DNA from: Antedon mediterranea
Lineage: Eukaryota; Animalia; Echinodermata
Reading direction: 5' to 3'
DNA length: 64,000 nt
NCBI RefSeq assembly: GCF_964355755.1
Contig: NC_092672.1
Span: 13,144,001-13,208,000, forward strand
Shown here: one piece after another, positions 54-63,551 of the stretch
Numbering within the stretch: position 1 is the stretch's first letter
Layout: each line of letters starts with the position of its first letter
Notes under the pieces: generated by a model
What the model was told of the DNA's origin: nothing
The model's input: the letters and a program-made list of their open reading frames with translations, nothing else
Databases searched by the model: none
Made by a program: the position numbers and the translations under genes

Positions 54-3000
54 CAACTGTTGTTCCTAAGTATCGATCTTTAACTGCAAGCATCGGTGAT
101 GATTTGACAGGCTTAATAATGGTAACCAGCTATGGGACAGGTAGTTACAGGTGGCGACATAATGGCGGAAATGTTATAACCTCATACAATGGTAAAAGTA
201 ACCTTGAATTGACCAATGTTCGTATGGCAGATGCGGGTGTGTATGAGTGTTACTTACATGAAACAGGAAGAGACGGAAGGCATGCCATTATTCAAATAAA
301 TGTTAAAGGTATGCATGACCTGATTGTTTAGAGTGTAGCATTTTAGTGTTCAACTATACTAACTTGTTGAAGGTTTGGTTTAATAAAAAGTTTAAATCTA
401 AAAATGTAATGCAACTTATAAATAAGCGACTAATAATTATGGTATTAATATGTTATGTACGAAAATTACGCAATATCTGGAATATACAATATGAAAATAA
501 CTATAATTAAAACGGAATAAGACAATTTTTAAAATAGCATAAAAACACATTAGGCCTGATACTGATTTTTGTAAAAATCAGCAATTAAGTATTCTGCATG
601 TCAAAAGCGATTTTAAAGAGAAGGGAATCAAATGGAATTAAAGGAAATGATAAAATAGCATGTAGAAGAATAATTTTTCCTGATTTGACCATTTGACCAA
701 TAGGAGAACTTTGAAGCCATGTGATAACTTGTGTAATCAATAAACGATAGACGTTTGATTATAATCTGATAAAGCCTGAATGCCTGAAGAAAGACAGAAC
801 CATAGTTATTATAAGGATTATCTTATATCAAATTTTTCGAATAGGATGTTCGAAAAGGAAGTGGGGAACAGATTGTGATTTAAATTGTCCTGTATGTTAC
901 AACGGTGGAATATGCGATCACATTACCGGCTTATGTATCTGCGCGGCTGGGTTCGAAGGCGTAGATTGTTCAAAAGGTAATGTTTACACACAATGTTTTA
1001 CATTTCATTTTATTGTAAATTTAAACATAAATCCTCCAATTTGATTTCGTGTAAATAACGTCACTGCTGTCTATCTATTGTACAGTTGACATGGTACAGT
1101 TTTGGACCCTAAATAGACAGTAGCTGCATTTGTAGTTTTGTTGGTATGTGTAATTATAGCTGTACTAGCAGGGAAGATTGAGCAATACTTTAATCTTCCC
1201 TGCTACTGTATGGAAGTTAAATATTATGGTTATGTTTACTTTAATATTAGCCTATATGGGAACCGTTATTTGAAAATCGAATTGTTTGGCTTTAATTATA
1301 TACCATCTATTTACTTTCTGTAAATCGGCTTAGAATATTTAGCAAAAGATAAATAACAGTGAGAAAGACCGTATTTATAATTTTGGATGTATTTCTGTAC
1401 AAATTGCATGTTTTATTACTCAACTGAGGCTTTGTATTTCAGGTTGTGAATCGTCGAACTGGGGAAGAGAGTGTTCTATAAATTCTCTAACGGAACACAT
1501 TGGAAAGACGTTTTGCCCTCCACATCCACTCAGTTGCTCTTGTTATGCTGGGTACACTGGACATGTATGTGATCAAGGTAATGAGACGAAATTGCTAGAT
1601 ATCGTTATGTTGATTTGTATCTCAAAAATGTATCATTCAAATTGCTATAGTCCTACTTTTTTTTTTTATAGAAAACTGAGTTCTTTTGCATTGCAAATAA
1701 TAGTGTCGCGCTACCAGATCTTGAATTAAAATGAGATAACAATATTATTATTCGTCTATCAAAGTGTATTAAAAACTTAGGTGTAATGTTTGATAGCTCT
1801 TTAAATATGTCCTCTAAAGTAAATGCTTTATGAAAGTCATTGAATTACCAACTCCGTAAGTGGCACATACTTCAATATATTTCTAAGGATGCAAGCCCCA
1901 ATGCCTGTCCCGCCTTGACTACGTTAACTCGCTCTTGCTTGGTGCCCTCGAAGTTGATCCTAAACGATTACAGCGATTGCAGAACAAGACTGGTCGTTGC
2001 GTGTGGACGGGATCAGCATTCGGGTGTGTTATTAAAAGATCTCCATTGGCTTCATATAAAAAAAAAAGAATTTTGTACAGAATTATTGTTTTTGTTTATA
2101 AATGTATTTACTCTGTTGTTCCTTTGTACCTTTTTGATTTAATTACGTTTAACCGTGATCAGCTTTCATTTAATTACTAATGTCGACTTCACTCCTCCAA
2201 TGATCCCACCCGACTTTTCGTTCCACGATCTAATCGGAAAGCTGGTGACGGTGTTTTTTCTGTCACCGCTGAACAGATCTGGAACACGCTACCTGTCGAT
2301 TTGAGAGGAGCGATTTCGGCACTCTTGTCTTCAGTTAAAATAAATAATAAATATAAATAACTTTTAAATTATGCATAGAATGTATACTGGGAATGTATGG
2401 TCCGGACTGCGCATGTGTGTGTCATTGTCCGACGAATGTGTGCGATAGACACAAAGGTTGTGCCGAGGATTCTGTGTGTCATTTGGGTTATGCAGGAAAG
2501 ACATGTCTAGGTGAGTGCAGCATCAGTCAAACGATCGTTACTTTTCTATCTATTCAAATGTATTTATGATTGTTAATTTCAAAACAATTAAACTTGTTTA
2601 ATATTTTACAAATCAGAACACCTCTCCTGTCCACCTGGTATGTTCGGTGAATTTTGTCAATATACTTGTCACTGTGAGAGTAAAAAAACAGACATCATAG
2701 CAGGCTGTGACAAACATACTGGAGAATGTTTAAATGACGTCAGCTGTTCTAGTGGATGGGGTGGGTCTGATTGTCAAATAGGTAAATTAGTTTATATTCA
2801 ATAAATCGTATATGATATTTTTCTTTGTAGTTCGATCATCAATTAAATAAATAAGCAATGCTCATATGCATACATTTTAATATATTATTTACTCACTAAA
2901 TATTAATAGTATAAATAAATTCGATCTGAATTTCATTTTTTTTTTTATACGATCGTCGTTATGTAACACAATATGCTTTAAAACATTCAGACTTTATCAT

Positions 3001-6000
3001 TATCAGCTTTGCCAATTCTCAAACGTAACCCAACTACAAGTGTTACAGAAAACAGTATAACTATAAGCTGGGAACCATGGAGGAGTAGTATTGACTACGG
3101 AACCGGACCCGTCATAAAATACCAAGTAATTTATCGGACACCACCGAACTCTGGATTTCCATTTATAGTATGGCGGGAAGTAAATGTGGACGATTTAATG
3201 CGAGTGGACATTGATGATTTAGAACCAAGAACTAACTATGAAATAAGAATTATTTTACATAGGCAGATTGATGGAGAGAATTATACATCAATTGGTTCAA
3301 GTAAAATAGTTGTTACCTCAGGAGAAGGTAAGAAAGATATACTAACTCATTTGCAAGATATATTTTATTACCGTTTTTATACAAGTGATATTACTACGGA
3401 GAGTAACATATTTTGGTTATTTTCAGACAAAATCATGGATTTTACATTTTATTGTGCCACACCACGAGTTGACGTTGATGATAATACGATGTCTACCTTT
3501 ATTGGCGGATATAGTGGCAGTGATCATCAAACAAGTGATATACAAATCGGAAAAATTGTAACTGAAATTGGAGAAGATTTTCTCGGTCGTGAAATAACAT
3601 GGAACGATGGATCCAGGGTAGGAGTGATATTGGGCAATGAAACCATGTTTCCAGTTGGAACTCGTGTCCAAATCGCAACTCCGAAACACTTCAATGCCTT
3701 ACGTGTGTATATTGACTCTGCCAGTGGCGTTAATAAACTGGGAGTATTTTACGCAAAAGCTAATAAATTACAAATGTGTAGTTATATATCTAGCGAAATT
3801 GTGTTAATCGTCTTAAGTAAACATGGTAAGTTTTTGAAAAATCTTTCCACGGTAATGGAATTGAATGATTATGACGTTGGTGGGACACAAGGTGCACATT
3901 AGCGACCATACTATAATTATTTACATATTGTATATAATGATAGGCATATATGAAAGAATGCAAAAGACCCAATGTGTTTTAATGTTTATCTATAGACCGA
4001 CCATTTATTACCATCAATATACCATTGAAAAAAAAGTGTATCCAGTCAAAGCAGTCATCAATTCAATTTTGGTCTTCATCAAATACAGCATGTTGAAGTT
4101 GTAATAATATAATTTAGAATTATAATTATTATTAATAGTTTCTAATACGGAATTTTATAAAATGTGGTTATTGTTTATATTTTACTTTGTTCAGTCATTG
4201 GTTAATGTTAATTATAATGTTGTAGCATCAGTAATGTCTGTTAGAAAAACCTGGACAACCGGTACAGGAGAACGTGTAATGATGAACATGGTTGGTGACA
4301 ACTCGACAGATAAATGGTGGCGCCACAATGGCATTACTTTAAACGAATGGAACAACAGTCTTTTTATCAAAATTGATGTAGTAAGAAAACAAGATGCTGG
4401 AATATACGAATGCTTACCTACAGAAAATTGGGAGAATGGGAATAAAGGAATTACAAATCTAATTGTCAGAGGTAAAACAATTGTTTACTTTCAATGTTCA
4501 AATGCTAACAGACTTGTAATAAACAATCGATTATTACTTCAAATAAGTGAAATTTTATTTTCAGAGTGTCCTCTTCGTAAATGGGGACCACCTGATTGTT
4601 TACGGAACTGTCCAACTTGTTACAATGGTGGAGCTTGTGATGACGTAACAGGAGCATGTGTCTGTACCGTCGGGTTTCGTGGTATCAATTGTGAAATAGG
4701 TGTGTGAAGTGTTCCTCATTTGTTCATAGCCTATTAGTGTAGACCACTATGTAATTTCGTGTCATTTTTTTGTTAAAAGCAAAATTCCAGCTGATTTAGC
4801 GTTTTTGGGATTTAAAGTAAAATATATAAAAATTATTATTATATTCATCAGTATCTTTAGGATGTAAAGTAATAAAAAAAACATGTTGCAATTTTTTTTT
4901 AAAAAGCTTAAGGTTGTCAAATCCAAGATGGCCGCCAATACGTAAGATATCCAATAAATGTACCATTTTGGACAAAGTAACACCCATTATGAATAATATT
5001 TAGTTACAATTAATGACATATGGGTTTTCTGCTATATAACAATTATTATAAACCTATATTCATCAGTATATCATTTTTTTAAATCGATTACATTTCTTAT
5101 TAAAACGTGACCATGGCCCTGAAGGTTCAGACATTGAATTACCTGGCAATAACGGATTTATTATTTAACACCATATTTTTACAGGATTTCACAATCTATA
5201 TTATAAGTGAGAGAGTTTGTACGTCTGTTTTTTCGTTATGCAAATTTTTGCTACTGCACATAGGCCTAATCTTGCATATTGGGTATCAAAATGACCAGAA
5301 TTGTACCGGGAAAGTTCTAAACTACATTTTAAAGATATATTGTCCCCAAAAACATGAAAAATGAAGATTAGTTAAATCAGACTTTGAATATGTGTGTTTA
5401 GTTTTGTAGTGTTAATAAAGTTAATCACTTCCATAAAAAAAACACAACAAAATATTTTTTCACTTGTAAAATGACAAAGAAAATGGTTAATTCAACCAAA
5501 AATTCATTGGCTGGCAGCAATTTTGACAATTGGCTGGCAGCCAATTTGACAATGTTTGCTTTAAATTACATTTTTTCGGGTAAATACATTTTTTTCCGAT
5601 CCGATTTTTGGTCGAAGTCGATAACTATTATGTTACATTAAAATAGAATATTCAACAAAAATGTTGTTAAGAATTATTTTTTCACGGGGACAATACATCT
5701 TTAACATCATCAGCCATCTAGGATCAAAGTTAAGCTTGGTTTCCACTAGGTCGCAAGGCAAGGACGTAGACGCAACGCAAACCAGTTGACCAATGACAAG
5801 CGACCATCGCTTGTGATTGGTTAAATCCCTTACGTTGCGTTACGTCGTTGTGTTGCGTCTCTAGTGGGAACCAGGCATTAGGGGTCAAAATGTGGTCAAA
5901 ATGGCCCACTTTTCCTCACTTTCAATGTTTGTTCTATTTCAGCACGTAACCATACATATGGTGTATCAAAATGCCCGCAATTGTACCGGGAATTTAATTT

Positions 6001-9000
6001 TGCTTAGACCAGAACTGTGTGGTAGGAAATTGTTATGAAGTATTTTAATTAGCCCTGGCGTAATGAAGTATAACGTGATTGAAATTGTACTAGGGAAAGT
6101 TACTACATTTCAATTGCCATGGAAAGAGTTAGGTTTGTTATTGTGGCTAGAATGGTGATAGGAGAAAGGTGGATGCCGCTCCAAAATTTCAGGTCAAAGG
6201 TCATTTTCAAGGTTATAAGGTCAAATATGGTAAAATAGAAGTTTCAGTTGTTTTCAACAACGTATAAGCTAATTAAAAGAAATGTAACCATTATTGGATC
6301 ATTATTGACATATTGCTGTAGATGGTCAAGTTCATCAATTTTTCAACTTACAAGTTTAAAGTCATTTTCAAGGTCATAAGGTCAGATAGAGCACAGGCCT
6401 GTTAATTATCGGTATTAATAATTGAAATAAATATAATTTTCATTGGGCTGATGGTTATAGTGTGGTGTCAAAAAGACCAGAATTGTACTGGGAAGATTTA
6501 AACTTTTTGAGTCACTCCTGGAAGATGTTCAATGGATGGGGAGGATGAGTCCTACAGTATCAAAATAGGCCGAACCTAAATTGGAGTCCTACTGGAATGT
6601 CTTAAATTTTATTTTAAAACGGTCACAGGGGGTTTGAGGGTTCGGAGTAATGGGCAGCATGGGCCCATGCCAATATTCGAACTTTTTCTGGGATGGAAGA
6701 AGGTAAACGCTCTGAGGTGGGTATTTCTTCCAGCACTAATATATAATGGCCATCTGGGTTACGGCAAACGATTGAATTACAACCACACATGCATGCTTTC
6801 GGTCACAACTTCATCTGACTCTTTAGTTTACAGAATACATACACATGTAACAAGTTCCAAACTGACAACTCGGTCAGGGGCTTCCAAACGACCCCATTCA
6901 TTTAGGCCACATACTGATCTCTGCCTGATAGTTGGCTCGTATGTTTAGTTTCTGATGTCTGTATTTACCTTAGGTGAGTTTTTGAAATTTTAAGTATTTC
7001 CCTAAAAGTGGAAATACAGTACTTAAATATTTATTGAGTAAAGTGAAATACTTAATATTTAAGGTTAAATTTATATCACTAATGTTAATGATATATGGTC
7101 ACTGAATCTAGATGGAGGTAGCATTTTAAGACCCTCCAAAGAGTAGTCTTTTATTATACAGTTATCTGCTCAAGCCGATGAGTGTGGCCTAAAACACATA
7201 CGGAAGTACAGATTAGTACATTGAGACTATCCTTTCAATCGTGTCACTGCTTTTATCCACCCCTTTTCAATGTAATGATCAAATACAACAAAATGACGAA
7301 ATATCCAGGTAACTTGCATAAATACTTGCATAGTCACCAAATGTTTTAAGGCCATGTTTACTGAATCCTATAGTGCATGACCATCATGTTTTTAACTTTT
7401 CTTCTGGAACATCTGTGGGTATTTCAACGCCATCCATCAAGGTATGTGAAGTCATAATTATTTGGTTAAAGATATAAAAATTGGGCTATGATCATACTCC
7501 AATGGTTGATCAGCAGATTTTCTGTCAGTTTTTTTGTTTTTATATACTTTATCGAAACAGTTGCCTTATAGAAATCCGATGCTTTCTCAGTGGTTTTTTT
7601 TTCTTTCAATAAGTTGTTAATTTAAATATAAGATCTTCTTTATCATCTGTCAGGTCGAAAGAATATTGTGTATTATGTGTGATTCGTGATCAGTCTGACC
7701 ATGTCATGCAGAATCAATATTTGGTACTTGGTTCTGATTAGTTTAGATAGGTAAACTTGTTTATCCTTTTAACCTCATTCTACAACAAATTTAATCGGTT
7801 TTTAAATGTGTTAGTGGTTTCAGAAATGACGACTTCGGTTGGCAAACTATTCGAATATATGATTACTCATTGTGAAAAACTGGATCTCCATCAGTCCTTT
7901 GTGAAATTTATTTCAGCTTAGATTGCATCTCATTTGAAGGAAGTCTTCCTTGGCTACACCTTCGAAACCTTTTGAAAAATTTCAATCAAGTCACAACGAA
8001 TTCGTCTGTCATACAGGGTTGTTAGGTCAAGAAACTTTAAACGATTTTCATATGAATAAGAATGGATAGCTGGAATTTGATTTGTCGCATGACATTGTCC
8101 TCTTTCAAGTGCGTTTATGTCTTTTTGGAGAATGGATTCCATACCTGGACACAGTACGTAACGTAATGTTTGTAAATAACGTTAAAACCGTATCCATGTA
8201 TATAAAGGACCTCTTAATTACTTAAGGAGTTTTATATCTGTTATCACCGTCAGCCAAGATAGCATAGATGCGAAGGCCTCAAGAAGGAGAACCCATTTAC
8301 CACTCCTTCCAACCTTGATAAAGTCCAATAGTTAGGGTTTGTGAAAACAAAGAATCGATACCCAGGATCCTTTTTCGAGATTTCTGGAAACAACAAATTT
8401 CAACAAAAACTTGTATCATTGAAAGAATGAAAAAAATGTTTATATAATTACATTACAGGGGGTCTCTGACCCCAACAAACACATCTCGACATTAGGTAAT
8501 ATAGGGGGTCCCTGTTTTCGAATTAAAAAAAAAAATTTCTAAATATTATTACATTATTAATATTAATAATATTATAGTAAAAAAACAATCTTTTGGCACA
8601 TATGGCGTTTCATACATATAACACCGACAAAAATCAAAATGATGACTGGTGGACAACACAAAAAAGAAAACAGACTGGTGACAGCCTATTAACAAGGCCA
8701 TATAGATGGCTGCAGTCGCGTGCTCATTAGTGTTTACCGACCGACCAACCGACCGAACAACCTACCAACTGACCGAAATTGCTGAACATGTTTAAAAATG
8801 TTGAAATGTTCAAAAACATTTATATTTTTTTAATCTACACGTGCGTAGCCTGTCACTTTTGACGTGTTCGTATAACGTAATTTCAAGTTGAAAAGTAAGT
8901 CAAGAAAACAGAAATCGGGCAAAAAGAGTGCGTAATAACATTTAACCAACCGACCAACCGACCGACATAGTGAGGTGTAGAGTCGCGTTGCACGCGACTA

Positions 9001-12000
9001 AAAGATGTGTGTACTTTACAGAAGTATGTAAAAACAACATTTTGAGAAAATGACACTTTTATATTTAATTTCTAATGTATTTATGTGTAAAATAAAATGT
9101 TTATCTCATAATTACTATAATATAAAGTTTTAAATCAGTTTTTTGGATAGATCTGACGATGTAGATGATTTTCCGTGAATAAAAAAAAATCCTATATTTT
9201 GACCTTTTTTGACCTCTTGACCAGATAAACTGACCATAAAACCCAAAACTGAAGATGGCATCCACCTCTATCGTTTTTTCACCCCACAAAGGATACATTC
9301 AACATGGTTGCCTGCTATTAACAAAAAATTCCACACAAACTTTTTATAGAGGACTTTTGTGTATATGGCCTCTCTACTATCAGGTTGAATTGAAATTTGT
9401 CCTGTGAAGAATTTGTTTTTAAAAAAGAGTGTGGGATCTTATTGAAGAGGGGTGGTATAGGGAGACACTGGGGTCTGTGAAGGCTTTAAACTAATCTAGA
9501 AACCCGCCCTGGGGCGGATATAATTGCTAGTAAGGTATAAATACACTTGTTTTATATTGTGGTAAATACAAGTTTCACTTTTATGGAAAGAAATGAGATC
9601 TATAATTTAGATTTAGAAGTAATTGTTGCTGAATATTTGATACCAACGTAAGTTGTTCCATACTTTTTGCAACTCCAACTTTGAACGATTAGGTAATTAG
9701 TAGGGGTATTATATATCTATTATATAGACAACTTTAGACAGCCTTATATTTAGACAATCCTATGATAAGTGACTATTTTAGAACATTGTGTACAAACAAC
9801 AACCATTATTTAAAGAATTTAATTTTAGTGGCGGCCATTTTGAAATCCAAGATGGTCGACAGATTATCGCTTTACATAGTTATGATTGTATAATGTGTAA
9901 CACCATCAAAACGGACTTGTTCCACATTCATAATTTGTGTTATTGGTGATATTCTAGTTTTAAATAGGGTTATTTAAATGTTGGCGGCCATCTTGAATTT
10001 GGTCCTTAAATTTCTTTATAAAAAATGGCAACACATTTTTTTCCATTCCTTATATTATCAAGATATGAAATCAAAGTCAAAGTTTGCTTTTAACAAAAAT
10101 ATACACGACATTCATATAAACGACATACCAGCCTACACTATATGTGCAATTGTATACCGTATAACATATATTTAATGTAACAGAGAAACAAAATATGAAC
10201 ACATATCAAGCCAAGTTTCCAATAATCAAAGTTTGGTATTTAAGACCTGGAAAGACATAATTCATCTGATACTTCAACGAGTTTTATCTAATACATGTTT
10301 TCAGATTTAATTCAAACATGCTCAATAATAATTTCGACACTAAAACAAATTGTTGCACATTAACTGTCGCATGATTTCATCAATTCAAAGCACAGTTCTT
10401 GATCATTTGTGTACATGCCTAAGTAGAACTTACGTTCTGTACATCCTAGGTCTACATTTAAATAATTACTAACAATAATTCATAAGTATCTACCTTATTA
10501 TAGGCAAACCTTGTACGGTACAATATTACGTAATACGATTTCGTAATTTCAAGAAAACCATATCCTGAAGTATCATTTTTATAAATACATCATGAGATAG
10601 TTTTCCTTCTTTCCTAAAGGTGACTACTACTGTACAAAAAACAGTAACAATAAACTTATCAAGAGGGTATAACATATATAAGATAACAAGTATCAGTAGT
10701 AGTAACATATTATGAAATAACTACTTTTTCATTACTTTTATTCGAAATATAGCATGTGGTTCGGATACGTTTGGAAGATATTGCAGTATAATTTGTTCAA
10801 GTAAAGATATCGAATCGTGTATGAGAAAGGTGATGTGTCCGCCGTCACCACAGGGATGTTCGTGCACCGATGGATATACTGGTCCAGACTGTCTTGACGG
10901 TACGATACATCTAATATTTATTTTTACATAATATCAATTTTATTCAGTGCTTGGTTTCTGAGTAACGGGACCCCAGCTCCATATACAGCACCCGCTATTC
11001 CCAGATGGTCTACCATCCAAGCTCTAACCAGGCCCAACGTTGCTTAACTTCGGTGATCTGACGAGAACCGGTGTTTCAACGTGGTAAAGCCGTATTACGT
11101 TTAATATGCTTCCATTGCATGCGCAACTAATTATTGTGAGATTCTGAAAGCGTTAGTGGTTATTTAGTGTGTCTGTCAAAAAGAGTACCGTACCAAAAAC
11201 AATCTTTAAATTTGTATAATGATTACAAATAGTATATTAAAGATGTATTGTCCCCCTGAACAAAAATTTTTTTTTTTTTAAAGGCCATTTTAATGATACA
11301 TAAAAGTTATTCACTTTGAAAAAAAATTGGATCAAAAAAAAAATTATTTACCTTAGAAAATCGTAATTTAAAGTAAAAGATAGTCAACCGGAAGTCGGTT
11401 GGCTGGCAGCCAGCTGGCTTCCGGTTTAATTTAACCCTTGACCTGAATTAGCTTATGAATTATGCATATTGTATGATTCTTGTGCGTGTATGTGACCTCT
11501 AGGTCATCAGAAAAAAAATACGACGTGATATGGCGAGACGACGATGTGGGAAAGTTCTGTAGTTTAACAACAAAAAAAACAACTCCTACTTGAAGAAAAG
11601 ACTATGGCTAGGCCCTAGCAGATTGGTAAGTAAGAACTGTAGTTTCTATGGTGTAGCTTTGTTAGTTAGTATAGGCCTAGGAAGCCTAGCTAGCCCATTA
11701 CAGCTGTACTGGCTATCTAGTGTACTATCCCCTATCTATTGGCTAGGCCTAGAGTAGTAGCTAGTCTAGTAGGGGTAGTAGTACTAGGCCTAGTTGTAGG
11801 CCTGAGTGAGGGTTCACCCTGAGTGAGTAGCAGGCCTAGCTAATACTAATAGATACAACTTGTAAGCCTTATTAATAGTTATTGCCAACCTAGCTTTAAA
11901 TAGGATTAGGCCTATAACATTCATCTGTGAGCATGGAGTAAGGAATAAGGTTTTAGCATGGAGGTATAAAAATAAAATATTTTATACCTCCATGGTTTTA

Positions 12001-17511: not shown

Positions 17512-17569
<58 letters not shown>

Positions 17570-21951: not shown

Positions 21952-22247
21952 ACAAGTTTACGTAATTAACAGGTAGATTAATTTGATTACATTTCGTCTG
22001 GAAAATCGTCGCGAGCGAAAGTAAACACAGATTTCAAACCATGAGTATGCACGATGCTAATTAGGATTGTTTACAACTCGTAATGTCTCTTCATCTCTTA
22101 ATAGCCTTTTGAATAAAATATGTTATATAACTGTAAAGGTTACTCTTTGGTTAGGTGTCATTTATAGAACGACGTAATATAGTACAATATAAATACGTAG
22201 CAAGATTGTTAGGCTAATTGTATGTATTTGTAACAGGCCACGGTTGA

Positions 22248-22255
22248 AACTAACT

Positions 22256-22287
<32 letters not shown>

Positions 22288-40842: not shown

Positions 40843-41005
40843 GGTATGTGTCGAATGACCCTGGCTAGACCTATATTGTAATTAATTGTATTCATTTGAA
40901 TAATCAACTGAAACTTACAACCTTTCATCTCTCATCAGTAACGCCATAACATTATTTAAACCTTTATCATTGAGTAATAACTATGCTTACTAATTCCTAT
41001 TTCAG

Positions 41006-41363
41006 ACGAATGAAACACCAGGTTAACGGATATAAAAAGGATTATGGGAACGTTCAGATTAACACAATATCAAAGCCGTCACAAAATTACCAAGACGACA
41101 GTTACACTTCACTGCAAAAAGAAGCGCGTTGTTTGGCAGAATCTCCGAACAATACCTACGAACAAGAAACCCCAAAAGACGAGATATTTTATTTGAACGT
41201 TACCAATTTATCTCAAAATAAACAAACAGAAGACGCCATAGCCGATACTGATACAACGTATGATGAAATCTGTGTTGGCGGCATAGAGAAGGAAAGAGGA
41301 ACTGATGCACGAAAAAAACCTCTGGTGCCTAAGAAACCAACAATTACGAATGACAAAGAATAA
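41006..41363 (+). other. Cytoplasmic-tail exon of copy 2; intact sequence but downstream of the premature stop, so predicted 3' UTR
   Basis: Near-identical to 18768-19125 and 59095-59452, with the acceptor tttcag conserved. It is untranslated if the TGA at 40840 is real. Confidence 0.75.
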
Positions 41364-52800: not shown

Positions 52801-55800
52801 CTCAATGAGGGAAACTCTCCACGTCAGTGGATAACTGCTACAATAGTTCCAGTTCCAAAACAAAACAAGATCCGCTCCTTTGATGATCTTCGTCCAATAT
52901 CATTGACGCCGGTCTTTGCTAAGATTTTTTAGGCATTTATTGCCAAAAGGATTATTGACGATATTGATAATAAATTAGACACTAAACAGTATGGTAATAC
53001 TAAAGGTTCATCTAATATACATTATCTTGTGGATATGTTAAATCATATTTATATGAAAGTCTTGACAAGCCCAAACAATCAGTTGAACTCTGTACAATTG
53101 ATTTTACTAATTTCTACTTCTGTGTGAAAGAACTCATACTACCAAACTTGGCACGCACATTTCTTTCACCAAATCAATCTCTTGTGGAGTACCACAGGGA
53201 ACCAAACTGGGACCCGTATTATTTTTGGTTCTAGTAAATGATGCTGCCATTGAAAGTTGTACACGTTGGAAATTTGTGGATGACCTTACTCTAGGGGAAG
53301 TAACCAAATGTGGTGCTTCCTCTAACTTAGAGAGTGTCCTTAATAGTGTCAGTGAATGGTGTGCATCTAATGATGTTCTACCTAAAGCAGCTAAGTGCCA
53401 AGTAATTGAATTTAATTTTTTAAAGCAACGGCAGCTTAATTTAGTATACACTATTGATAACTTTAATCTTCCAATAGTTAATAAGTTAAAATTGCTTGGT
53501 GTAATAATCCAAAATGACCTCAAATGGGGTTCAAATGTTAATAATATAACATCAAGAGCCTCACTTAGGCTATTCTCATTATGTATCCTGAAAAGGTCTA
53601 ATGCACCAGTCAGTAACCTGGTTACAGTATTTACATCATATATCAGACCTGTGCTGGAATATGCCTGCCAGGTTTGGCATTCATCAACAACTGTTCAGCA
53701 ATCTAATTTAATGAAAAAAATTAAAAAACGGGCATTGCGCATAATTTTAAGCCAACATTACGTTAGCTATGAATTAGCCTTAGAACACATAGGTTTGCTT
53801 TCTCTAAAGTCCCGTAGAGAACAGATTCTTCTAAAGTTTGGCAAGAGTCTTTTAGAATCTACCAAATTTAGAAATATGTTACCAGCATATCTGATAGGCA
53901 TTCAAGATCGTTAAGGATTAATACTATTTTAAATAGCAAATAACCCATTGGAACACTTTAAATTTAAGCATAAAACGTGATAGGTTTTAAGTAAATCAAA
54001 CATAATTATATCATATACCACAACAAAATGTATACATTTATTTGTCTGAAAAACTGTTTCAGCTATCATTTTCTGTAGGCCCTAAAACTTTTTAAAAATG
54101 TAATTTTTTAGCCTTTTATTGTTTTTGGCTGTCTCTACAAATCTATACAGGCGACTTATGTCTGATTTTGCTTGCATGTGCCACATTTAAGAGAACCTAA
54201 AGAAGAGAAAAAAAGATAATAATTGTTTTCTATTAATGTTTTATATTACGTTTATATGCTTCTATTCGTGCGCAATTAATTATCGTGAGATTCTGAAAGC
54301 GTTAGTGGTTGGTTAGTGTGTAAAAAAAAACCAAAACAACCTTTAAATTTGTATAATGATTACAAATAGTATATTGATTAAGTTAACAAGGGTATAAATT
54401 TGATTATGGACATTTTGTAGAATGTTCTTCTGGAATGTATGGCTCTGATTGTCAGCAGAGGTGCCAGTGTGACGTCAGTCATTGTGATCGAAAGTTTGGA
54501 TGTAATGGAATATGTTACGAAGGATATACTGGACCTCAATGCCAAGGTAACCAAACTTAATCGAAGTAGTTAAATATTTCAACATAATAATCACCTATCT
54601 GTCGAGTACGATATCCTATTCAGAAACACACTGTATAATGCCCTCCGATTGACTAGAATGATAATGATGACGGTGCTTGAATAACATTAAAAACATATAA
54701 AGCTAACAACTAGGCTTATACTCAAATTCCTAACTGGTGCATCATGCGTAATCTTTGCTTACCATTTTTAAATATTTTAAGTGTATTTGGAGTCCGTTGC
54801 AGCTAAAATGGTTTTATTGTTATTCACACATAATCCTAAATTTATCGTTTTCGATTTTTTTAGATTTTCATATAATATATTATATTTCCGAAAAGCCGAT
54901 TATTATTGTTTCACACGTCTTTTTGGTATAATTGTAAGTAATTCTTTGTATGCGTCTGTGAACCTCAACACCAAGTAATTGTAATCAGAGTGGTCTCAAC
55001 TAACCCCTGTACATCTACTTCTCGGACAACTGCCACCCGAACAAACCACCCTCCATACCCATTAGGACAATGTTTTTTTAAATGTGGCCTCACTAAACTC
55101 ACTTCTATTTAGTTATAATAGAGCCATGTTCTCAAGTTTTCTTGAAATTCCGAAAGGAAAATTCAATTTGTTCTGGTTTGGACCAGTCTAACCTTTGACC
55201 ACAAATGTTGAGTGTTTCTATTTAAATTCGTGTAATTCTGTACCAAATCGCGTTTCAGCTTTGATATTGTACAATTTTCATTGTCAAAATATTTGTGAAA
55301 CTGTGTTTTTAAAAATATGTCATCAAGATCCATTTTTGATAAAAATAAATTCGGGAACAATTGTAATTTTGAATAAAAAAATTCAAAAAGTACAATTTTG
55401 ACCAAACCACTTTACCATATTATTATTTGCATGTAAACTTCATGTTTTGTATCATTAGATTGATAATTAGAAATAGCTCCTATAGGGTACTTCATTTGAT
55501 AATGTTACATCAGTCAGTCCAGATGTTTATAGATTTAAAAAAAAAGTACTAGGTACTAAAATCAGATTAAAAAAAAAGGTTTAAAAAGTATTGTAACTTG
55601 TTTTGGGTGACCAATATTTTTCATAGGTTTCCTGGAAAAATAGGACGACACACGAGTTTCCTTTCTAAAGGTCCCTTCGTGTCGAGTGCCACCAAACGGC
55701 GCTCATTCGTATGTTCGCAACGACATGGATTGACCAGCCCATCGGGGTAACCTCTACTTTTCCGAAAGCACATACGAGGGTTTACACTGGACCTTCAGTT

Positions 55801-58800
55801 TTAAGTCATTATCCGCGAAGGCTTGTACTACCATAACAATGGTCAATGAGTGACTTGATTACCTAAAAAATTAAAATAAAAAATACAGTAGACCAATAAT
55901 GATGATGAACATTTTAAGTGGGAAAAGGTTGTCATAGAGAGTGTCTATAGTAGATTTTGGGGTGGGATATTTCTTTAGTCAAACCACAAAATATTAAATG
56001 ATATTGAGTTTCTGATTTAAAGGGTAGGGCATTGGACAAGGAAGTTGCTTTAAATTAAAAAAATGTTACAATATGAAGAAAGAGAACAATGAAGTAACTC
56101 TTTGAAGCACTGAATGGGATCTTTGTGGGTCCTGGTAAGATGGAATCTAGGGTAGTCCGGCGCGGAACCGGTGCAGCCCTAATAGCCACACTGCCTATTT
56201 GTTGCACCATCACCCGGACAACTTAAGAGTGCTGTTACAGTAGGCCTATATATTTTGTAATGTTATGTAAGAAATAGGCTACAGTTGTTTTCAAGGAGTG
56301 GTTAGTATTTTCTATGCCTAATATTGGACCAATTGCAAAAGGTTTATGGATACTTTTTAACCGTAATTTGTTATTGCAAAATGCGAACAAATTAAATGAA
56401 ATAATTAATTAGCTTCGTACAGTTATCCAGGGGTGTATATGTTGTCCTGGAAGGTAGTTGTCCAAAAGGTTAATTGTACTTGGAGTAAATATCCTACGGG
56501 TGATTGTTCAGGCGGTAGTTGTCCGAGGAGGATAGTTGTCAAGGTTGTAGTTGTCCTGGTGGTGATTGTCAAAATAAAAGGTAGTTGTCCGAGAAAGAGC
56601 TTCTTCCAAGAACGATCTACCACTGAAATGTAAATTTAAATGTTATTTTAATTTCAGAATTGGTGCATGATCGTACTTGTTCCAATGGTCACTTTGGTGC
56701 TTTGTGTAACTATCCTTGTCACTGCCAACACTCATCAAATTGTCATCGTAATGGAAGCTGTGATAATGGATGTACTTCTGAATGGACAGGGACCGACTGC
56801 AGTATTGGTATGTTTTACACAAGCATAGGTGTAACGTTAGTTTTAGGCAAAATAATTCGCCATCTAAGGTATATTTTAGTTAAATAGGTAATATTTAAAG
56901 GTTTGCATGGCAAAATTTTTTTTATTAAAGTTAGATTTGAGGTAAATCATATGATTTCAAAAGATGCATGATTGAGTATTCCTACTTTAATGTGTAATTT
57001 TATCTTTAAAGGGTATCTGTAAGGTTTCATTGATTGAATATTATATAATCGATTAGCTTAATCATATCAACAAAGTCTTGGAAATTTTAAATCAATGTGA
57101 TAGATGCAGATGAAGACTATGCTTACTTACTACAGTAAAATCACAATTACCTTTCCGTGTAAAGGTATAGTCATTATATCAAAAATTAATTGTACAAAGA
57201 TAATAATTAAAGTACATCAATTCTGTGTAAATTAATACAGCTTTGCCGTATATATTGAGAAGATTGAACGTGACTGATATACGAGCAACTAGTATAGATG
57301 TGTCTCACTTATGGGTATTTGGCGAAGACTTTGGAACTGGACCCGCTACTGCTTATGTATTGTGTTACCGTAGCACCACCGATTGGTTTTGTCAGAAAAC
57401 AATACAAAGTCTGTCAACAATCAATGACTTAATACCAAACACAACAATTGAAGTAAAGGTTCAAGTTTTCAAAAGGATTGGTTATGATGACATTGGAGGT
57501 CCTATGATAACTGTTACAAGAATCAGAACTATTTGTCTTGGTAAGTTCTAAACTTGATCAATTAGTTTAATTTGTCTAGTTTTGTTTATAGTTTAAAAAT
57601 AAAAATAAACTCTATACAACTCGCAACAAAACGTATTCTCAGCATTATAATCTCTTTTCCTTTTTATTTTTTTTTTACAAAATTCAGTTCTCACCCTTTT
57701 GGTGACGACAATATTGTCATTAAAACTGAGTGTGGTAGAATAATAATTGACAATTTTATATACAATACTGTTTTATTTTTAATTTTATCTTTTTGTATTC
57801 ATTTTATTGTAAAAACCTGTACAACCAATAATGGAAGTATAATTACATGTACAATATATAATATATATATATATATATATTATATTGGTTGAACATAACA
57901 TTTACGCATAATATGACAGGGAGTATATCTTAACTGTAATGTTAGTACAATTTAATACAAAATCAAATATAGACTAGAATATAATAGAGCACTGGAAAGG
58001 TAAGATTTACTAAGATGAATTATCAATTACAGAACCTCTTGATTCGCCAAAGGTAGAAACATTGTCAACCATCAAGGACACCATTGTAGTAAAATGGAAG
58101 GTGGGCATTTTCAATGTATTTTTTAATTACCTTATTGTTGTTGTAGCTTAATAATACATCCATTTTTTGAGCTAATGTATTGTTTTATCTGCCTTAAAAT
58201 TTGCCAGTCACAAGTATATAGACAGTATCGAATTTGATCGATAAACTTTTAAGTATTAATAATAATGTAAACGACATTTTACTGTAGTTAGGTTTACTTT
58301 TTCGAAGGCTGTAGATTTCAATCCTACGCGGTTGCAGTGTGACAGTTTATTACATTACGACGTTGGTTACCAAACTGGGATTAACGACGCTTGGGAAACA
58401 TTTCAAGTTAATTATGATCAGACCGAAGCAACTATTAACTTTTTAGCTTATGACATGGTATATCAAGTTAGAGTTAGGGCAGTGAATACAGCAGGAATTA
58501 CAGGACCATGGAGTGAAATATGGACAATTAAAATTCCAGAAAATAAAACAGGTCAGGTTTCGTTCTTTATAATTGACAATAACTCAGACTCTATAGACTC
58601 AGCATTAGTGCGCTTACCGGTAAAAAATCAAAATGCCAGAAAATTTCAAACAATAGTAAACGATATTTTGAAATAGTTGTGTTTGTTACTCTTGTTTCGA
58701 TACTTTTTTCCATCTTCTAACTCTCATCTACTAGGCCTAAGTAAACGAATTGCTTATACATTGATTTACACTCATCTACTAAAACGAATTATTTATACAT

Positions 58801-59452
58801 TTGCTTTCATCTACTAAATTATTTAATTGTTTATACATTTTCTTATTTAGGATCAAAGATAGCTATATATGTGCTCTCATCAGTTGTCGCATTGTTAGTT
58901 ATTTCTACCGTTGTGGTTCTTGACAAATTGAGGTATGTGTCGAATGACCCTGGTTAGACATATATTGCAATTAAGTGTATTCATTTGAATAATCAACTGA
59001 AACTTACAACATTTCATCTCTCATCAGTAACGCCATAACATTATTTAAACCTTTATCATTGAGTAATAATTATGCTTACTAATTCCTATTTCAGACGAAT
59101 GAAACGCCAGGTTAACGGATATAAAAAGGATTATGGGAACGTTCAGATTAACACAATATCAAAACCGTCACAAAATTACCAAGACGACAGTTACACTTCA
59201 CTGCAAAAAGAAGCGCGTTGTTTGGCAGAATCCCCTAACAATACCTACGAACAAGAAACCCCAAAAGACGAGATATTTTATTTGAACGTTACCAATTTAT
59301 CCCAAAATAAACAAACAGAAGACGCCATAGCCGATACTGATACAACGTATGATGAAATCTGTGTTGGCGGCTTAGAGAAGGAAAGAGGAACTGATGCTCG
59401 AAAAAAACCTCCGGTGCCTAAGAAACCAACAATTACGAATGACAAAGAATAA
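43815..59452 (+). CDS. Tie-like Ig/EGF/FN3 transmembrane receptor without kinase, copy 3 (complete, 19 exons, 1276 aa)
   Basis: Exons: 43815-43881, 45071-45439, 45956-46210, 46767-46898, 47338-47472, 48188-48319, 48424-48588, 48831-49151, 49805-50203, 50616-50861, 50955-51089, 51713-51859, 54421-54546, 56658-56807, 57241-57540, 58033-58100, 58308-58551, 58851-58932, 59095-59452. They sum to 3831 nt (1277 codons including stop), and every intron is GT..AG. Confidence 0.9.
44259..44563. mobile_element. Kolobok-like MITE in intron 1 (copy 3)
   Basis: Same position and sequence as 23965-24269, with TTAA flanks. Confidence 0.75.
47501..47667. repeat. ~165-bp dispersed structured repeat (same intron position as 27262-27426)
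   Basis: Direct identity. Confidence 0.8.
49218..49766 (-). mobile_element. 549-bp retro-insertion with a (CTTGA)n-type tail (copy 3 intron 8)
   Basis: TATTA duplication at 49213-49217 and 49767-49771, (TCAAG)3 at the left end, and an empty site in copy 1 (~3390). Confidence 0.65.
52035..53914 (+). mobile_element. L2/CR1-group LINE reverse transcriptase pseudogene (copy 3 intron 12)
   Basis: Reads DKPWFT, TIVPVPK, DDLRPISLTPVFAKIF, CGVPQGTKLGPVLF, WKFVDDLT and IRPVLEYACQVWH, with stops, a frameshift and an internal deletion. The whole copy-specific segment is ~51924-54244. Confidence 0.9.
55019..56594. mobile_element. Foldback/TIR element with GGACAACT repeats (copy 3; same as 14691-16244)
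   Basis: Same ends and interior as the copy 1 element. Confidence 0.55.
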
Positions 59453-59813
59453 CACAATTTGTAGGCGTATAACACATGAAAAATCTTTAAATGCATTCTG
59501 CTTATGCAGTAAATATGTCATAAATATGGCTACATAGTTTTCTATAAAATATATAATTTCTTGAATCGCAGTGACCAAGTTACGATTAACGCGTTTTTAT
59601 TAAATATTAAAATGACTTGAGTGTTTTGTATCTGTTTTTTTTTAATTTATAATAATAGGTAAAATAAAATATATGCTAATTCTGCCAAGTGAAATACTGT
59701 TTATGAATGATTTGTTTTCTCTTTTGTGGGGATTTTACATTACATTTTTATCATTATTATATTGAAAACAATTGTTAAAAATGAAAAACAATGCACATCT
59801 AAATTTAACTTAA

Positions 59814-60339
59814 ATATGTATTGTCCCTTGAAACACAAAAAAATGAAGGTCAAAATATTCAAAATTTAAATTGGCCATATCAAAGTAATATTAAAGTTAT
59901 TCACTTTAAGTCGAAAATTCGAGCCAAAAACAACAAGTTTACGTAATTAACAGGTAGATTAATTTGATTACATTTCGTCTGGAAAATCGTCGGGAGCGAA
60001 AGTAAACAAAGATTTCAAACCATGAGTATGCACGATGCTAATTAGGATTGTTTACCACTCGTCACGGTTGATGAGAAGGTGTTTCGATTGCGCGGAAATT
60101 CTATGATTATGCATAGAGAGTAGCCGTTGCATTATGAGATATATTTTGATCGAAAACTTTGACTGGAAGTCAAAGTTATTTTTTGGAAAAAAAACGTCTG
60201 TATTTCAGTTAAATTATTTTTTTTTCGACAAATTTTTTGGTGAAAATTAATAACTATTATGATACTTCAAAATGACCCACTTTTTTCGAAATCTTTTATT
60301 TTTTATTTTTTTGGAATTAGTCAAAGGGACAATGCATCT
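59814..60339. mobile_element. Kolobok-like MITE downstream of the 3' UTR
   Basis: TTAA|ATATGTATTGTCCCTTGA ... TCAAAGGGACAATGCATCT|TTAA. Counterparts at ~19495 (interrupted by the LINE) and ~41734 (right TIR deleted). Confidence 0.7.
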
Positions 60340-61916: not shown

Positions 61917-63551
61917 ATGTTGAACGCTAAAGAGTATCTAAGTCTGGCAATTCTGACATTTGGTGCGTCAATGACGTCTGCAGGTTAGTAACCATCTTTT
62001 TGCAAAACGTTATATATTTTTTTATTTTGAAAAATATTTGTGTCCTATTTAAATTGCATATCGTTTATTTTAGTTTGCCACAAATCAATAAGTTTTACTT
62101 AGTCTCAAGAGTAGTAGGTTACACTATTATTATAATTATTGTTGGAGAGACACACCTTACCGGTGACAGCGTTTGTTTAATGCTTTTGTCTTTCCTCGGC
62201 CTCGTGTCTTGTTTTTCATATATATATATATATTTTTATGTTTTTTTTTGTAATTATTATTTATGTTTATTGCCGAAATGAATAAAATAAATAAATAATA
62301 AATAAATAAAATTGGCACTGTGATACATCTACATTGAAAATCAAATCATATTGGAAATTAATTAATTACCTTAAAGATGTATTGTGTCCCTGAAAAATAA
62401 ACATTTTTTAATCCACTCTGAAAAAAAAATGGATCGAAACAAATTGTATTTACATGAAAAAAATGTAATTGAATAATAATTTAAAGCAAAAAATGGTAAA
62501 ATTGGCTGCCAGCCAATGGGGTTTTGGTTGAGTTTAACCATTTATTTTGTAATTTTATAAGTTTTATATCGTTTTTAATCCCCATAAGCAATTAACTTTA
62601 TTAAAACTACAAAATAATGTATTCAAAGTCTGATTTAAATAATCTTCATCTTTCAAGTTTTGGAGGACAATACATCTTTAATCAATTTAAACAGAAGCTA
62701 GTATCCTACTCCGCCTTCTCATTAGATGTACGTACTAATATTTCGTACACCAATAAATTTGCTGTAATGTTTATAAACTTTAGTATTTTTTAACATTATT
62801 TGTATATTTCTTGCATAATTTTACCTGTAATTGTGTTCTTTAATTCCATGGAAGACTAAAAAAATATACAATTGTATGTATTAACAATGCCGTTTCACGG
62901 TTTATGTTTTTTTTTATATTTGTATTGACTTGGTTTAATTTGATCCAATTGCTTTTAAAATAAAATTGTACACAGTAATAGAGATCTGTTATTCCTGGAG
63001 TACGGTGATTACTTAAGCACAATGGCAGTATACAAATAAAAAAAGTGTTTTTGAATAGTTGACGTGATGTTATTGCTTTTTTTGTGATGGGAAGTTTTAC
63101 TAAAATTTGTACCATATTTTGTTTTTAGCCAATACCACAATGGTATCTATACGTAAATAAGATACAATATTATATTTTACAGATGTTTTGGATTTCACAA
63201 TAGTGGTTAATAGTGCCGTGGTTGATGCAAACGATGAGGTTAATTTTGGTGGATACCTACATAAATCAGAAGAATCAACATTAATATTTCTAGGTCAAAA
63301 TATCCTTACAGAAACTGATTCTAATGAAAATGAAGTGGAATGGACGGATGGTGATAACCCGCCGATAGTCTTAGATAATTCATTCTTTCCAACTGGAACA
63401 AGTTTAGGCACAGAAACGACTTCAGAATACCAGGCTTTGATAATGACAATGCCCAACAGTAGTGGTATTGCAGAAGTAGGATCGTTTTACGGAAAAGCAA
63501 TGGCTCAAAGCAAAGAAGAATTTATACCTTTTGTTATTCTAAATTCAAATG
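61917..63551 (+). CDS. Tie-like receptor copy 4 (3'-partial; exons 1-2, continues beyond the window)
   Basis: Signal-peptide exon 61917-61983 and Ig1-like exon 63183-63551, near-identical to copies 2 and 3. The window ends just before the exon 3 acceptor. Confidence 0.85.
62375..62677. mobile_element. Kolobok-like MITE in intron 1 (copy 4)
   Basis: Same position and sequence as 23965-24269. Confidence 0.75.

What the first reader, a model, noticed from the sequence alone, without database searches (positions are those of the whole stretch)
54..63551. Tandem array of kinase-less Tie-like receptors with ITIM/ITSM-type tails: candidate undescribed invertebrate immune or allorecognition receptor cluster
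Seen: at least four near-identical head-to-tail genes encoding signal peptide-(Ig1-like, Ig, 4xEGF, FN3)x2-FN3-TM-short Tyr-rich tail, with no kinase. Known: the Ig-Ig-EGF...FN3 order and the EGF Cys spacing are those of the Tie1/Tie2 angiopoietin receptors, whose ligands are fibrinogen-domain proteins. Clustered, recombining Ig-superfamily receptors with ITIM tails and tail-less paralogs are the pattern of KIR/LILR/SIRP/CD300 clusters, and Hydractinia Alr is a comparable invertebrate cluster. Inference: a Tie ectodomain has been re-used as a diversified, adaptor-signalling recognition receptor family, possibly binding fibrinogen-related proteins.
Basis: partly seen in the sequence, partly recalled or inferred. 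Interest (0 to 1): 0.85.

Follow-up and report, generated by a model that had tools for sequence, protein, structure and literature searches.

The report
Kinase-less Tie-type receptor gene array
A feather star carries a young row of near-identical genes for surface receptors that have two copies of the Tie2-type binding head but no enzyme inside, ending instead in a short tail of tyrosine docking motifs that likely recruits signalling enzymes, with one copy cut off right after the membrane; an immune role is possible but untested.

Summary
The anatomy is confirmed. Four head-to-tail + strand copies lie in the window: B and C whole, A and D cut by the window edges. My 19-exon model of C is identical to an 'uncharacterized' Antedon mediterranea RefSeq protein of 1276 aa: signal peptide-(Ig-Ig-4 EGF-FN3)x2-FN3-TM-119 aa tail. 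The predicted second head superposes on Tie2 (Z 27.9). Contigs of a likely RNA run splice the TM exon to the tail exon and run past the stop position. No kinase or phosphatase exon lies in the window. The tail has an ITIM and an ITSM 23 residues apart and a hemITAM-like motif; copy B stops right after the TM.

The immune or allorecognition reading is only partly supported. Copies are recombined mosaics, but pN/pS is about 0.5 and the domain matching Tie2's ligand-binding Ig2 is 91-99% conserved. The closest catalytic relatives found are echinoderm receptor phosphatases, not Tie kinases, and enzyme-less Tie-headed proteins also occur in other echinoderms and a tunicate. Ten paper searches found no description. 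The scan noted a related Tie-headed cluster on another piece of this genome.

The parts
54..19125 (+). Copy A, exons 3-19 (54-308, 845-976, 1443-1577, 2379-2510, 2617-2781, 3007-3327, 3427-3825, 4226-4471, 4565-4699, 10753-10899, 14142-14267, 16307-16456, 16890-17189, 17713-17780, 17982-18225, 18524-18605, 18768-19125); open frame, full tail; exons 1-2 lie left of the window
   Evidence: matches RefSeq fragments P0001 and P0006 letter for letter; 16 of 16 listed differences of run X1 from copy C in exons 3-8 carry copy A's letter
23525..41363 (+). Copy B, 19 exons (23525-23591, 24773-25141, 25655-25909, 26446-26577, 27099-27233, 27861-27992, 28097-28261, 28426-28746, 28861-29265, 29701-29946, 30036-30170, 34164-34310, 35146-35271, 35517-35666, 36041-36337, 39980-40047, 40243-40486, 40769-40843, 41006-41363); 1155 aa, tail-less
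   Evidence: RefSeq fragments P0030 and P0003
40769..40843 (+). TM exon of copy B, 7 nt shorter than in A and C; stop codon at 40840-40842 directly after the hydrophobic stretch; the tail exon behind it is intact but out of frame
43815..59452 (+). Copy C, 19 exons (43815-43881, 45071-45439, 45956-46210, 46767-46898, 47338-47472, 48188-48319, 48424-48588, 48831-49151, 49805-50203, 50616-50861, 50955-51089, 51713-51859, 54421-54546, 56658-56807, 57241-57540, 58033-58100, 58308-58551, 58851-58932, 59095-59452); 1276 aa
   Evidence: identical to P0005 = XP_071944637.1; pieces of X1 contigs end within 3 nt of predicted boundaries of exons 2-8, 15 and 19
43815..43881 (+). Exon 1, predicted signal peptide (copy C)
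   Evidence: X1 record 1 has 76 letters ahead of its exon 2 match
45071..49151 (+). Unit 1 of copy C: Tie-type Ig1-like, Ig2, four EGF-like exons, FN3 (aa 23-525)
49805..57540 (+). Unit 2 of copy C: Tie-type Ig1-like, Ig2, four EGF-like exons, FN3 (aa 526-1026); its head is 39% identical to the head of unit 1; holds the most variable domains (Ig1, second EGF)
58033..58551 (+). Membrane-proximal FN3 (exons 16-17, copy C)
   Evidence: PF00041 E 5.9e-07
58851..58932 (+). TM exon (copy C); no charged residue inside the hydrophobic stretch
59095..59452 (+). Tail exon (copy C), 119 aa: YGNV (Y1171), hemITAM-like DDSYTSL (Y1191, codon 59192), ITIM IFYLNV (Y1220, codon 59279), ITSM TTYDEI (Y1243, codon 59348), PPVPKK (59408)
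   Evidence: X1 record 7 joins exon 15 to this exon over exactly 394 nt = exons 16+17+18 and is collinear to 59553
61917..63551 (+). Copy D, exons 1-2 (61917-61983, 63183-63551); continues right of the window
   Evidence: RefSeq P0019 begins with the same sequence

Best explanation
The window holds a young tandem array of spliced genes for single-pass receptors with a doubled Tie2-type head and no catalytic domain, whose tyrosine-motif tail likely gets phosphorylated by a cytoplasmic kinase on ligand binding and would then recruit SH2 proteins, most likely an SHP-type phosphatase, making the full-tailed copies predicted inhibitory or tuning receptors. Shown: array, exon structure, splicing, absence of a catalytic exon, Tie-type fold (predicted model), motif matches, tail loss in B, mosaic copies. 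Inferred: the ectodomain came from an echinoderm lineage of Tie-headed receptor tyrosine phosphatases and its own enzyme was lost or never joined; the ITIM+ITSM pair binds a tandem-SH2 phosphatase, YxN binds Grb2, and PxxPxK binds an SH3 adaptor (binding rules recalled); unequal crossing-over and gene conversion make and homogenise copies; tail-cut copies (B; RefSeq model P0002) are decoys, opposing receptors or decaying copies; the cells concerned are likely coelomocytes or coelomic epithelium. The ligand is unknown and probably shared by the copies, since the Ig2 equivalents barely vary.
For: Tie2 is the best hit by sequence (E 3.7e-37; profile E 5e-60) and by fold (model residues 528-843 on Tie2 23-317, Z 27.9, rmsd 3.0 over 277 residues; next unrelated row Z 11.8). 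X1 record 7 spans exon 15 to the tail exon with a gap of exactly 394 nt and stays collinear 100 nt past the stop position, where the genomic frame is stopped again after 3 codons. No catalytic exon in the window. ITIM and ITSM are kept in 3 of 3 full tails (A, C, P0004) and lie 23 residues apart; four YxxI/L/V motifs occur in 0.6% of shuffles. The EGF3-EGF4-FN3 unit without Ig3 is matched over nearly its whole length by sea cucumber P0009 and P0010 (both with PTP domains), P0007 (no catalytic domain in the model), Anneissia P0008 and Antedon P0029 (degenerate PTP) at iE 1e-26 to 1e-47. It is matched only in part by the amphioxus kinase P0012 and by P0014, P0047 and P0015, and not at all by P0046. 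Heads group with crinoid P0029/P0020/P0008 (83/97; 92/92 together with the sea cucumber second heads); a clade with the amphioxus kinase head is rejected (AU p=0.0005). Mosaic: 97 runs against 134 +/- 6 in shuffles, 0 of 20000 as low. pN/pS about 0.5. Sea urchin Tie1/2 and starfish Tie-2-like and RPTP-like proteins are reported in coelomocytes (PMC6494969, PMC13409769, passages).
Against: No binding, phosphorylation or tissue data. A lone ITIM match arises in 15% of shuffles, and the hemITAM-like pattern was chosen after seeing the sequence. YLNV is also a YxN motif, so the tail may be a general adaptor dock rather than inhibitory. The tail shows no similarity above shuffles to the juxtamembrane region of any PTP-bearing homologue, so descent by truncation of a phosphatase is not shown. 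No echinoderm Tie kinase was in the tree, neither grouping is starred, and the sea cucumber second heads moved between models. Record 7 differs from copy C at 24 letters and 2 gaps in the tail exon and UTR, so its reading frame and stop were not seen directly, and X1 is RNA only by the tool's guess and by its splicing. RefSeq splits copies A, B and D into fragments. The folded model has mean pLDDT 60 from 11 sequences.
Confidence: 0.6

Rival explanations
1. A paired on/off immune recognition system: full-tailed copies inhibit, a copy that keeps only the hemITAM-like motif activates, the tail-less copy is a decoy, and variation in the second head (Ig1, second EGF) gives different specificities for microbes or for polymorphic self ligands such as fibrinogen-related proteins.
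For: Three tail states in one array: full (A, C, P0004), cut after DDSYTSL with an Arg in the TM (RefSeq model P0002, same contig, outside the window), none (B). The second EGF of head 2 is 67-90% and Ig1 of head 2 79-91% identical to C, against 98-100% for Ig1, Ig2 and the first EGF of head 1. Botryllus FcoR swaps ITIM and hemITAM, and Hydractinia Alr tails carry ITIMs or ITAMs (PMC12582321, PMC9546547, passages). X1 record 7 fits none of the window's copies over its whole length.
Against: In the variable exons synonymous changes are as frequent or more so (pN/pS 0.70-0.77 in exon 9; 0.60-0.62 in exon 12 for B against A or C); the two ratios above 1 between A and C rest on 5 vs 1 and 6 vs 0 changes. 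The Ig2 equivalents are 91-99% identical. P0002 also lacks head 1 and may be a broken copy; I could not read its DNA. The Tie2 binding segment is not conserved.
Confidence: 0.2
2. One working receptor gene amplified by recent unequal crossing-over; the extra copies are redundant, B and P0002 are decaying, and the tail variants mean nothing.
For: Start-to-start spacing of 18-20 kb with shared flanks at 94-97%; a frameshift in B and a deletion plus early stop in P0002; transposon-derived insertions in introns; birth and death of copies is common in tandem arrays (general knowledge).
Against: All ectodomain exons of B are open with intact splice sites and pN/pS of about 0.5 against A and C; X1 holds letters of more than one copy type in exon 9.
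Confidence: 0.25
3. A non-immune adhesion, engulfment or tissue-remodelling receptor (PECAM-1-like or MEGF10/Draper-like in signalling), for example in coelomic epithelium or arm regeneration.
For: Conserved binding domains fit one invariant ligand; long EGF/FN3 stalk; ITIM+ITSM pairs also occur in adhesion receptors (recalled); enzyme-less Tie-headed proteins with tyrosine tails occur elsewhere in echinoderms (P0046, P0047).
Against: Single-copy conservation is usual for such receptors (recalled); here the array is young and found closely only in this species.
Confidence: 0.2
4. These are the 5' parts of receptor kinases or phosphatases whose catalytic exons lie outside the window, or the array is an assembly artefact.
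For: Close relatives carry PTP domains; alternative splicing cannot be excluded from contigs.
Against: Each copy has its own tail exon with a stop, the next copy starts 2.5-4.4 kb later with no catalytic exon between, a spliced contig runs past the stop position, and copies differ by exon substitutions and intron insertions.
Confidence: 0.03

Closest known systems
Tie1/Tie2 (TEK) angiopoietin receptors; sea urchin SpTie1/2
   Same: Ig1-Ig2-EGF head and a following FN3 that aligns weakly to Tie2's first FN3; single TM.
   Different: Head doubled; a fourth EGF and no Ig3; no kinase; Tie2's angiopoietin-binding segment not kept; tandem multi-copy.
Unnamed echinoderm Tie-headed receptor tyrosine phosphatases (Holothuria P0009, Apostichopus P0010, Antedon P0029 with a degenerate PTP)
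   Same: Two Tie heads in tandem (P0009, P0010), the EGF3-EGF4-FN3 unit without Ig3, a lengthened Ig1.
   Different: No PTP domains here; an FN3 between the two heads; tail not alignable to their juxtamembrane regions.
Enzyme-less Tie-headed proteins in annotations (Amphiura P0046, Antedon P0047 'angiopoietin-1 receptor-like', Clavelina P0015)
   Same: Tie head, TM, cytoplasmic part with no catalytic Pfam hit; tyrosine-rich short tails in P0046 and P0047.
   Different: Single head, other stalks; not in the same branch of the head tree; gene models only.
Vertebrate non-catalytic tyrosine-phosphorylated and paired receptors (KIR, LILR, SIRP, CD300, PD-1, PECAM-1; features recalled)
   Same: Short tail with ITIM+ITSM, tandem cluster, recombination, tail-less or short-tailed paralogues.
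   Different: Unrelated ectodomain; no sign here of diversifying selection on the predicted binding domain; no adaptor or function shown.
Hydractinia Alr and Botryllus FF/FcoR allorecognition families (PMC9546547, PMC12582321; passages)
   Same: Clustered Ig-superfamily receptors with ITIM and ITAM/hemITAM-type tails, with pseudogenes in the Alr cluster.
   Different: Those have highly polymorphic ectodomains and divergent tails; here ectodomains are about 90-95% identical, tails are one sequence cut at different points, and there is no genetic link to a fusion/rejection trait.

Membership tests
Tie receptor tyrosine kinases | Ig1-Ig2-EGF head | tested here: met
   E 5e-60; Z 27.9, rmsd 3.0, 277 residues, predicted model of head 2
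Tie receptor tyrosine kinases | Cytoplasmic tyrosine kinase domain | tested here: not met
Tie receptor tyrosine kinases | Three EGFs, then Ig3, then three FN3; single head | tested here: not met
   four EGF-like exons lead straight into FN3; head doubled
Tie receptor tyrosine kinases | Binds a fibrinogen-domain ligand at Ig2 (Phe161-Glu169 in Tie2, PMC8294587) | tested here: inconclusive
   the aligned segment differs from Tie2's; binding itself not testable
Receptor protein tyrosine phosphatases with Tie-type ectodomain | PTP domain(s) | tested here: not met
Receptor protein tyrosine phosphatases with Tie-type ectodomain | Homologous ectodomain unit (head, EGF3-EGF4, FN3, no Ig3) | tested here: met
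   (iE 1e-26 to 1e-35 for P0029, P0009, P0010)
Receptor protein tyrosine phosphatases with Tie-type ectodomain | Tail derived from their juxtamembrane region | tested here: inconclusive
   no score above shuffles for P0009, P0010, P0014, P0029; such linkers evolve fast
Paired ITIM/ITAM receptor clusters (KIR/LILR/SIRP/CD300 type) | Tandem cluster with recombination between paralogues | tested here: met
Paired ITIM/ITAM receptor clusters (KIR/LILR/SIRP/CD300 type) | Members with ITIM/ITSM consensus | tested here: met
   (consensus match only)
Paired ITIM/ITAM receptor clusters (KIR/LILR/SIRP/CD300 type) | Activating partner (short tail, charged TM residue or ITAM) | tested here: inconclusive
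   none in the window; RefSeq model P0002 has a TM Arg and keeps only the hemITAM-like motif, DNA and expression unseen
Paired ITIM/ITAM receptor clusters (KIR/LILR/SIRP/CD300 type) | Diversifying selection on the ligand-binding domain | tested here: inconclusive
   pN/pS about 0.5 over three copies, Ig2 equivalents conserved; no allele data, ligand site unknown
Paired ITIM/ITAM receptor clusters (KIR/LILR/SIRP/CD300 type) | Immune-cell expression and SHP/Syk recruitment | not testable with these tools
   run X1 has no tissue on record
Allorecognition determinants (Alr1/2, FF/FcoR) | Tens to hundreds of divergent alleles; linkage to fusion/rejection | not testable with these tools
   only two samples laid, as contigs

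The most novel reading that the evidence does not exclude
Feather stars built a paired receptor system from a Tie2-type head taken from receptor phosphatases: the head was doubled, the enzyme was replaced by one tail with a hemITAM-like motif ahead of an ITIM-ITSM pair, and cutting that tail at different points in recombining copies yields inhibitory, activating and decoy receptors whose second head varies to read microbial or polymorphic self ligands.
Probability: 0.15. Interest if true: 0.8.

Novelty: new variant of a known kind. Interest (0 to 1): 0.5.

Why it matters
The Tie ectodomain is known almost only from angiopoietin receptor kinases. These data show it as a mobile module in echinoderms, joined to phosphatases, a scavenger-domain protein and enzyme-free tyrosine tails, and doubled in one chain. 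A young array whose members differ mainly in how much tail they keep is a tractable case for how inhibitory, activating and decoy receptors arise from one gene. Crinoid immunity is nearly unstudied, so corrected gene models (RefSeq splits three copies) give direct candidates. If the copies are only redundant duplicates, the result is a modest new domain architecture.

Tried and rejected
Kinase or phosphatase exon in the window: none. Assembly artefact: rejected; contig depth cannot give a copy number. Exon 10 acceptor at 50592: dropped, since that AG is absent in A and B; 50616 is shared and gives the RefSeq protein. Tail cut down from a PTP juxtamembrane region (lead from e1-10649695): no similarity above shuffles for 4 of 4 PTP-bearing homologues; of 10 proteins tested only Amphiura P0046 scored (z 3.6, 3 of 500 shuffles), through a shared TTYxxI/V-type motif. 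Positive selection: not found. A canonical ITAM or strict hemITAM in the tail: not present. Pfam Ig_Tie2_1 did not hit exons 2 or 9, and exon 9 alone found no relevant PDB sequence; the Atlas's first hit for residues 23-420 was a mainly echinoderm cluster with that family on 12% of members, and the tail gave no hit at 0.9. A second fold of head 1 alone was poor (pLDDT 50) and was not used. No listed run is on record as RNA. No whole genome is held and the genome index did not complete, so flanking copies, array size and orthologous loci were seen only through RefSeq proteins. Paper searches without a description of this family; subscription papers on the sea urchin kinome and phosphatome are outside the library and may mention Tie-like ectodomains on phosphatases. 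No complex prediction was run: no candidate ligand was at hand.
Full report
1. The array. A self-comparison of the window shows a unit that repeats at 18-25 kb on the + strand. Exon mapping gives four copies: A (exons 3-19, 54-19125), B (23525-41363), C (43815-59452) and D (exons 1-2, 61917-63551). Every modelled intron is GT..AG. C is open over 1276 codons and is letter for letter RefSeq XP_071944637.1 of Antedon mediterranea, named 'uncharacterized'. RefSeq proteins on a contig of the same length add a tailed fragment (P0004, likely the rest of D) and a further copy (P0002), so the array likely has at least five members. RefSeq splits A, B and D into fragments, while in the window A and B have all their exons in frame up to the TM. 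Exons differ by 0-22% between copies and introns by kilobases, which argues against a duplicated assembly.

2. The protein. The order is signal peptide, twice (Ig1-like, Ig, four EGF-like exons, FN3), one more FN3, TM and a 119-residue tail. Tie2 is the best solved relative by sequence and by fold: in a model of copy A's ectodomain (pLDDT 60), residues 528-843 superpose on Tie2 23-317 at Z 27.9, rmsd 3.0 over 277 residues, far above the next family at Z 11.8. So the second head is a whole Tie-type head. The first head, 39% identical to it, is one by homology. Unlike Tie2 there is a fourth EGF and no Ig3.

3. No enzyme. Six-frame motif scans and tblastn with three PTP regions and one kinase region find nothing in the window. 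Run X1, RNA by the tool's guess, gives contigs whose pieces end within 3 nt of my exon boundaries. Record 7 (1955 nt) covers exon 15 and the tail exon with 394 nt between, exactly exons 16+17+18 of the tailed type (B's type would give 387), and is collinear 100 nt beyond the stop position. It differs from C at 24 letters and 2 gaps in that last piece, so it is another copy or allele and its frame was not read. Of the 40 variant rows shown (520 more not shown), the 16 that X1 has in exons 3-8 all carry copy A's letter; of 8 in exon 9, 2 match no copy in the window. A splice to a distant catalytic exon is not excluded by contigs but has no support.

4. The tail. It holds YGNV, DDSYTSL, IFYLNV (ITIM by the consensus in PMC9546547), TTYDEI (ITSM, consensus recalled) and PPVPKK. 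In 100000 shuffles an ITIM occurs in 15%, an ITSM in 6%, four YxxI/L/V in 0.6% and the two-acid hemITAM-like pattern in 0.8%; I chose that last pattern after reading its definition in PMC12582321, so the joint figure (6e-5) overstates the case. ITIM and ITSM tyrosines are 23 residues apart, a spacing that suits tandem-SH2 phosphatases (recalled from PECAM-1 and PD-1). Both are kept in 3 of 3 full tails. B has a 7-nt deletion that stops it right after the TM. P0002 lacks head 1, has an Arg in the TM and ends after DDSYTSL, without ITIM or ITSM; I could not see its DNA, and it may be a broken copy.

5. How the copies differ. Among 249 three-way informative sites in A, B and C, the odd-one-out copy comes in blocks: 97 runs against 134 +/- 6, with none of 20000 shuffles as low. 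This supports gene conversion or unequal crossing-over. Over exons 3-17 pN/pS is 0.54, 0.45 and 0.49. Identity to C is 98-100% for Ig1, Ig2 and the first EGF of head 1, 91-95% for Ig2 of head 2, 79-91% for Ig1 of head 2 and 67-90% for its second EGF. In those variable exons silent changes rise too (ratios 0.6-0.8 for comparisons with B); the A/C ratios above 1 rest on 5 vs 1 and 6 vs 0 changes. Angiopoietins bind Tie2 at Ig2, residues 161-169 (PMC8294587, passages); the aligned segment here has a different sequence and varies little between copies. So the array is recombining but not visibly diversified at the expected binding site. DNA runs X2, X3 and X5 (one sample) show several variants at shared sites and lack C's 554-nt intron 8 insertion; they give no copy number.

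6. Relatives. Three word-index searches and one full HMMER search found close relatives only in this species. More distant Tie-type heads sit on sea cucumber receptor phosphatases (P0009 and P0010 with two heads, P0014 with one), an Antedon protein with a degenerate PTP (P0029), an Anneissia SRCR protein (P0008), an amphioxus kinase (P0012) and models with no catalytic domain (P0007, P0046, P0047, P0015). The EGF3-EGF4-FN3 unit is matched nearly end to end by P0007-P0010 and P0029, only in part by P0012, P0014, P0047 and P0015, and not by P0046. In head trees the array groups with crinoid P0029, P0020 and P0008 (83/97, with P0014, P0015 and copies other than C left out); the sea cucumber second heads join at 92/92 in the mixture model but not in the simpler one. 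A clade with the amphioxus kinase head is rejected (AU p=0.0005; group named after the first tree was seen). No echinoderm Tie kinase was in the sample, so an origin from the phosphatase lineage is likely but not shown. The tail does not align to any PTP juxtamembrane region.

7. Mechanism. Most likely (0.6) these are non-catalytic tyrosine-phosphorylated receptors: ligand clusters them, a cytoplasmic kinase phosphorylates the tail, and the ITIM-ITSM pair recruits an SHP-type phosphatase, with Grb2 and SH3 adaptors as further partners. All of these steps are inferred. Tie2 pre-dimerises through its membrane-proximal FN3 (PMC8560823, passages); whether this holds here is untested. The rivals overlap in part with this reading and with each other: a true paired immune system (0.2), redundant and decaying duplicates (0.25), a non-immune adhesion or engulfment receptor (0.2), and a hidden catalytic exon or artefact (0.03).

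8. What is known. Ten searches found no description of this family. I saw passages only of PMC6494969 (SpTie1/2 in coelomocytes and axial organ), PMC13409769 (Tie-2-like and RPTP-like proteins among starfish coelomocyte markers), PMC9546547 (Alr), PMC12582321 (FcoR), PMC8294587 and PMC8560823 (Tie2), PMC4898815 (Tie duplications in sea squirt and/or amphioxus), and a reference-list line of PMC9367165; no supplements were opened. The genes are not Tie kinases and not phosphatases, as the defining domains are absent; they work, by inference, like ITIM receptors of paired clusters. The scan's unreviewed note e1-10649695 describes a Tie-headed cluster with phosphatase and ITAM members on another piece of this genome; a sequence look-up found no look-alike of P0005 among the scan's windows.

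9. Verdict. A real, likely expressed and apparently undescribed architecture and array; a new variant of a known kind of receptor. The immune or allorecognition role is plausible but has no direct evidence, and the selection data lean against strong diversification. Interest 0.5.

Noticed in passing
window 20028-21564 (-): Fragment of a non-LTR retroelement between copies A and B (RVT_1 E 1.4e-12; zf-RVT E 4.4e-05); absent from the B-C and C-D spacers.
   Followed up: partly
window 52381-53914 (+): Broken non-LTR retroelement in intron 12 of copy C (RVT_1 E 3.1e-07).
   Followed up: partly
window 30976-31464 (-) and 31625-33947: Intron 11 of copy B holds an ORF that looks like the start of a Harbinger-type transposase (recalled resemblance; no Pfam hit) and a 2.3-kb element with 38-nt inverted ends at 97%.
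   Followed up: partly
window 49213-49766: 554-nt insertion in intron 8 of copy C only; a high-copy repeat by contig depth, skipped in runs X2, X3 and X5.
   Followed up: partly
P0002 (XP_071944640.1), outside the window: Model of a further copy with one head, an Arg in the TM and a tail cut after the hemITAM-like motif: a candidate activating partner or a broken copy.
   Followed up: partly
P0007, P0009, P0014 (Holothuria leucospilota, 60.2-Mb contig): Several Tie-headed receptors with and without PTP domains come from one contig, and P0007 and P0014 have accession numbers 7 apart: possibly a cluster. P0014 has a tyrosine-rich linker with ITIM- and ITAM-like matches ahead of its PTP domains.
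   Followed up: no
P0012 (amphioxus): Tie head, fibrinogen domain, FN3, SAM and tyrosine kinase in one predicted chain: a receptor model that carries its own fibrinogen-type domain.
   Followed up: no
P0008 (Anneissia japonica): SRCR domains fused to repeated Tie-type units, with no TM in the model: links the module to scavenger-receptor domains in another crinoid.
   Followed up: partly
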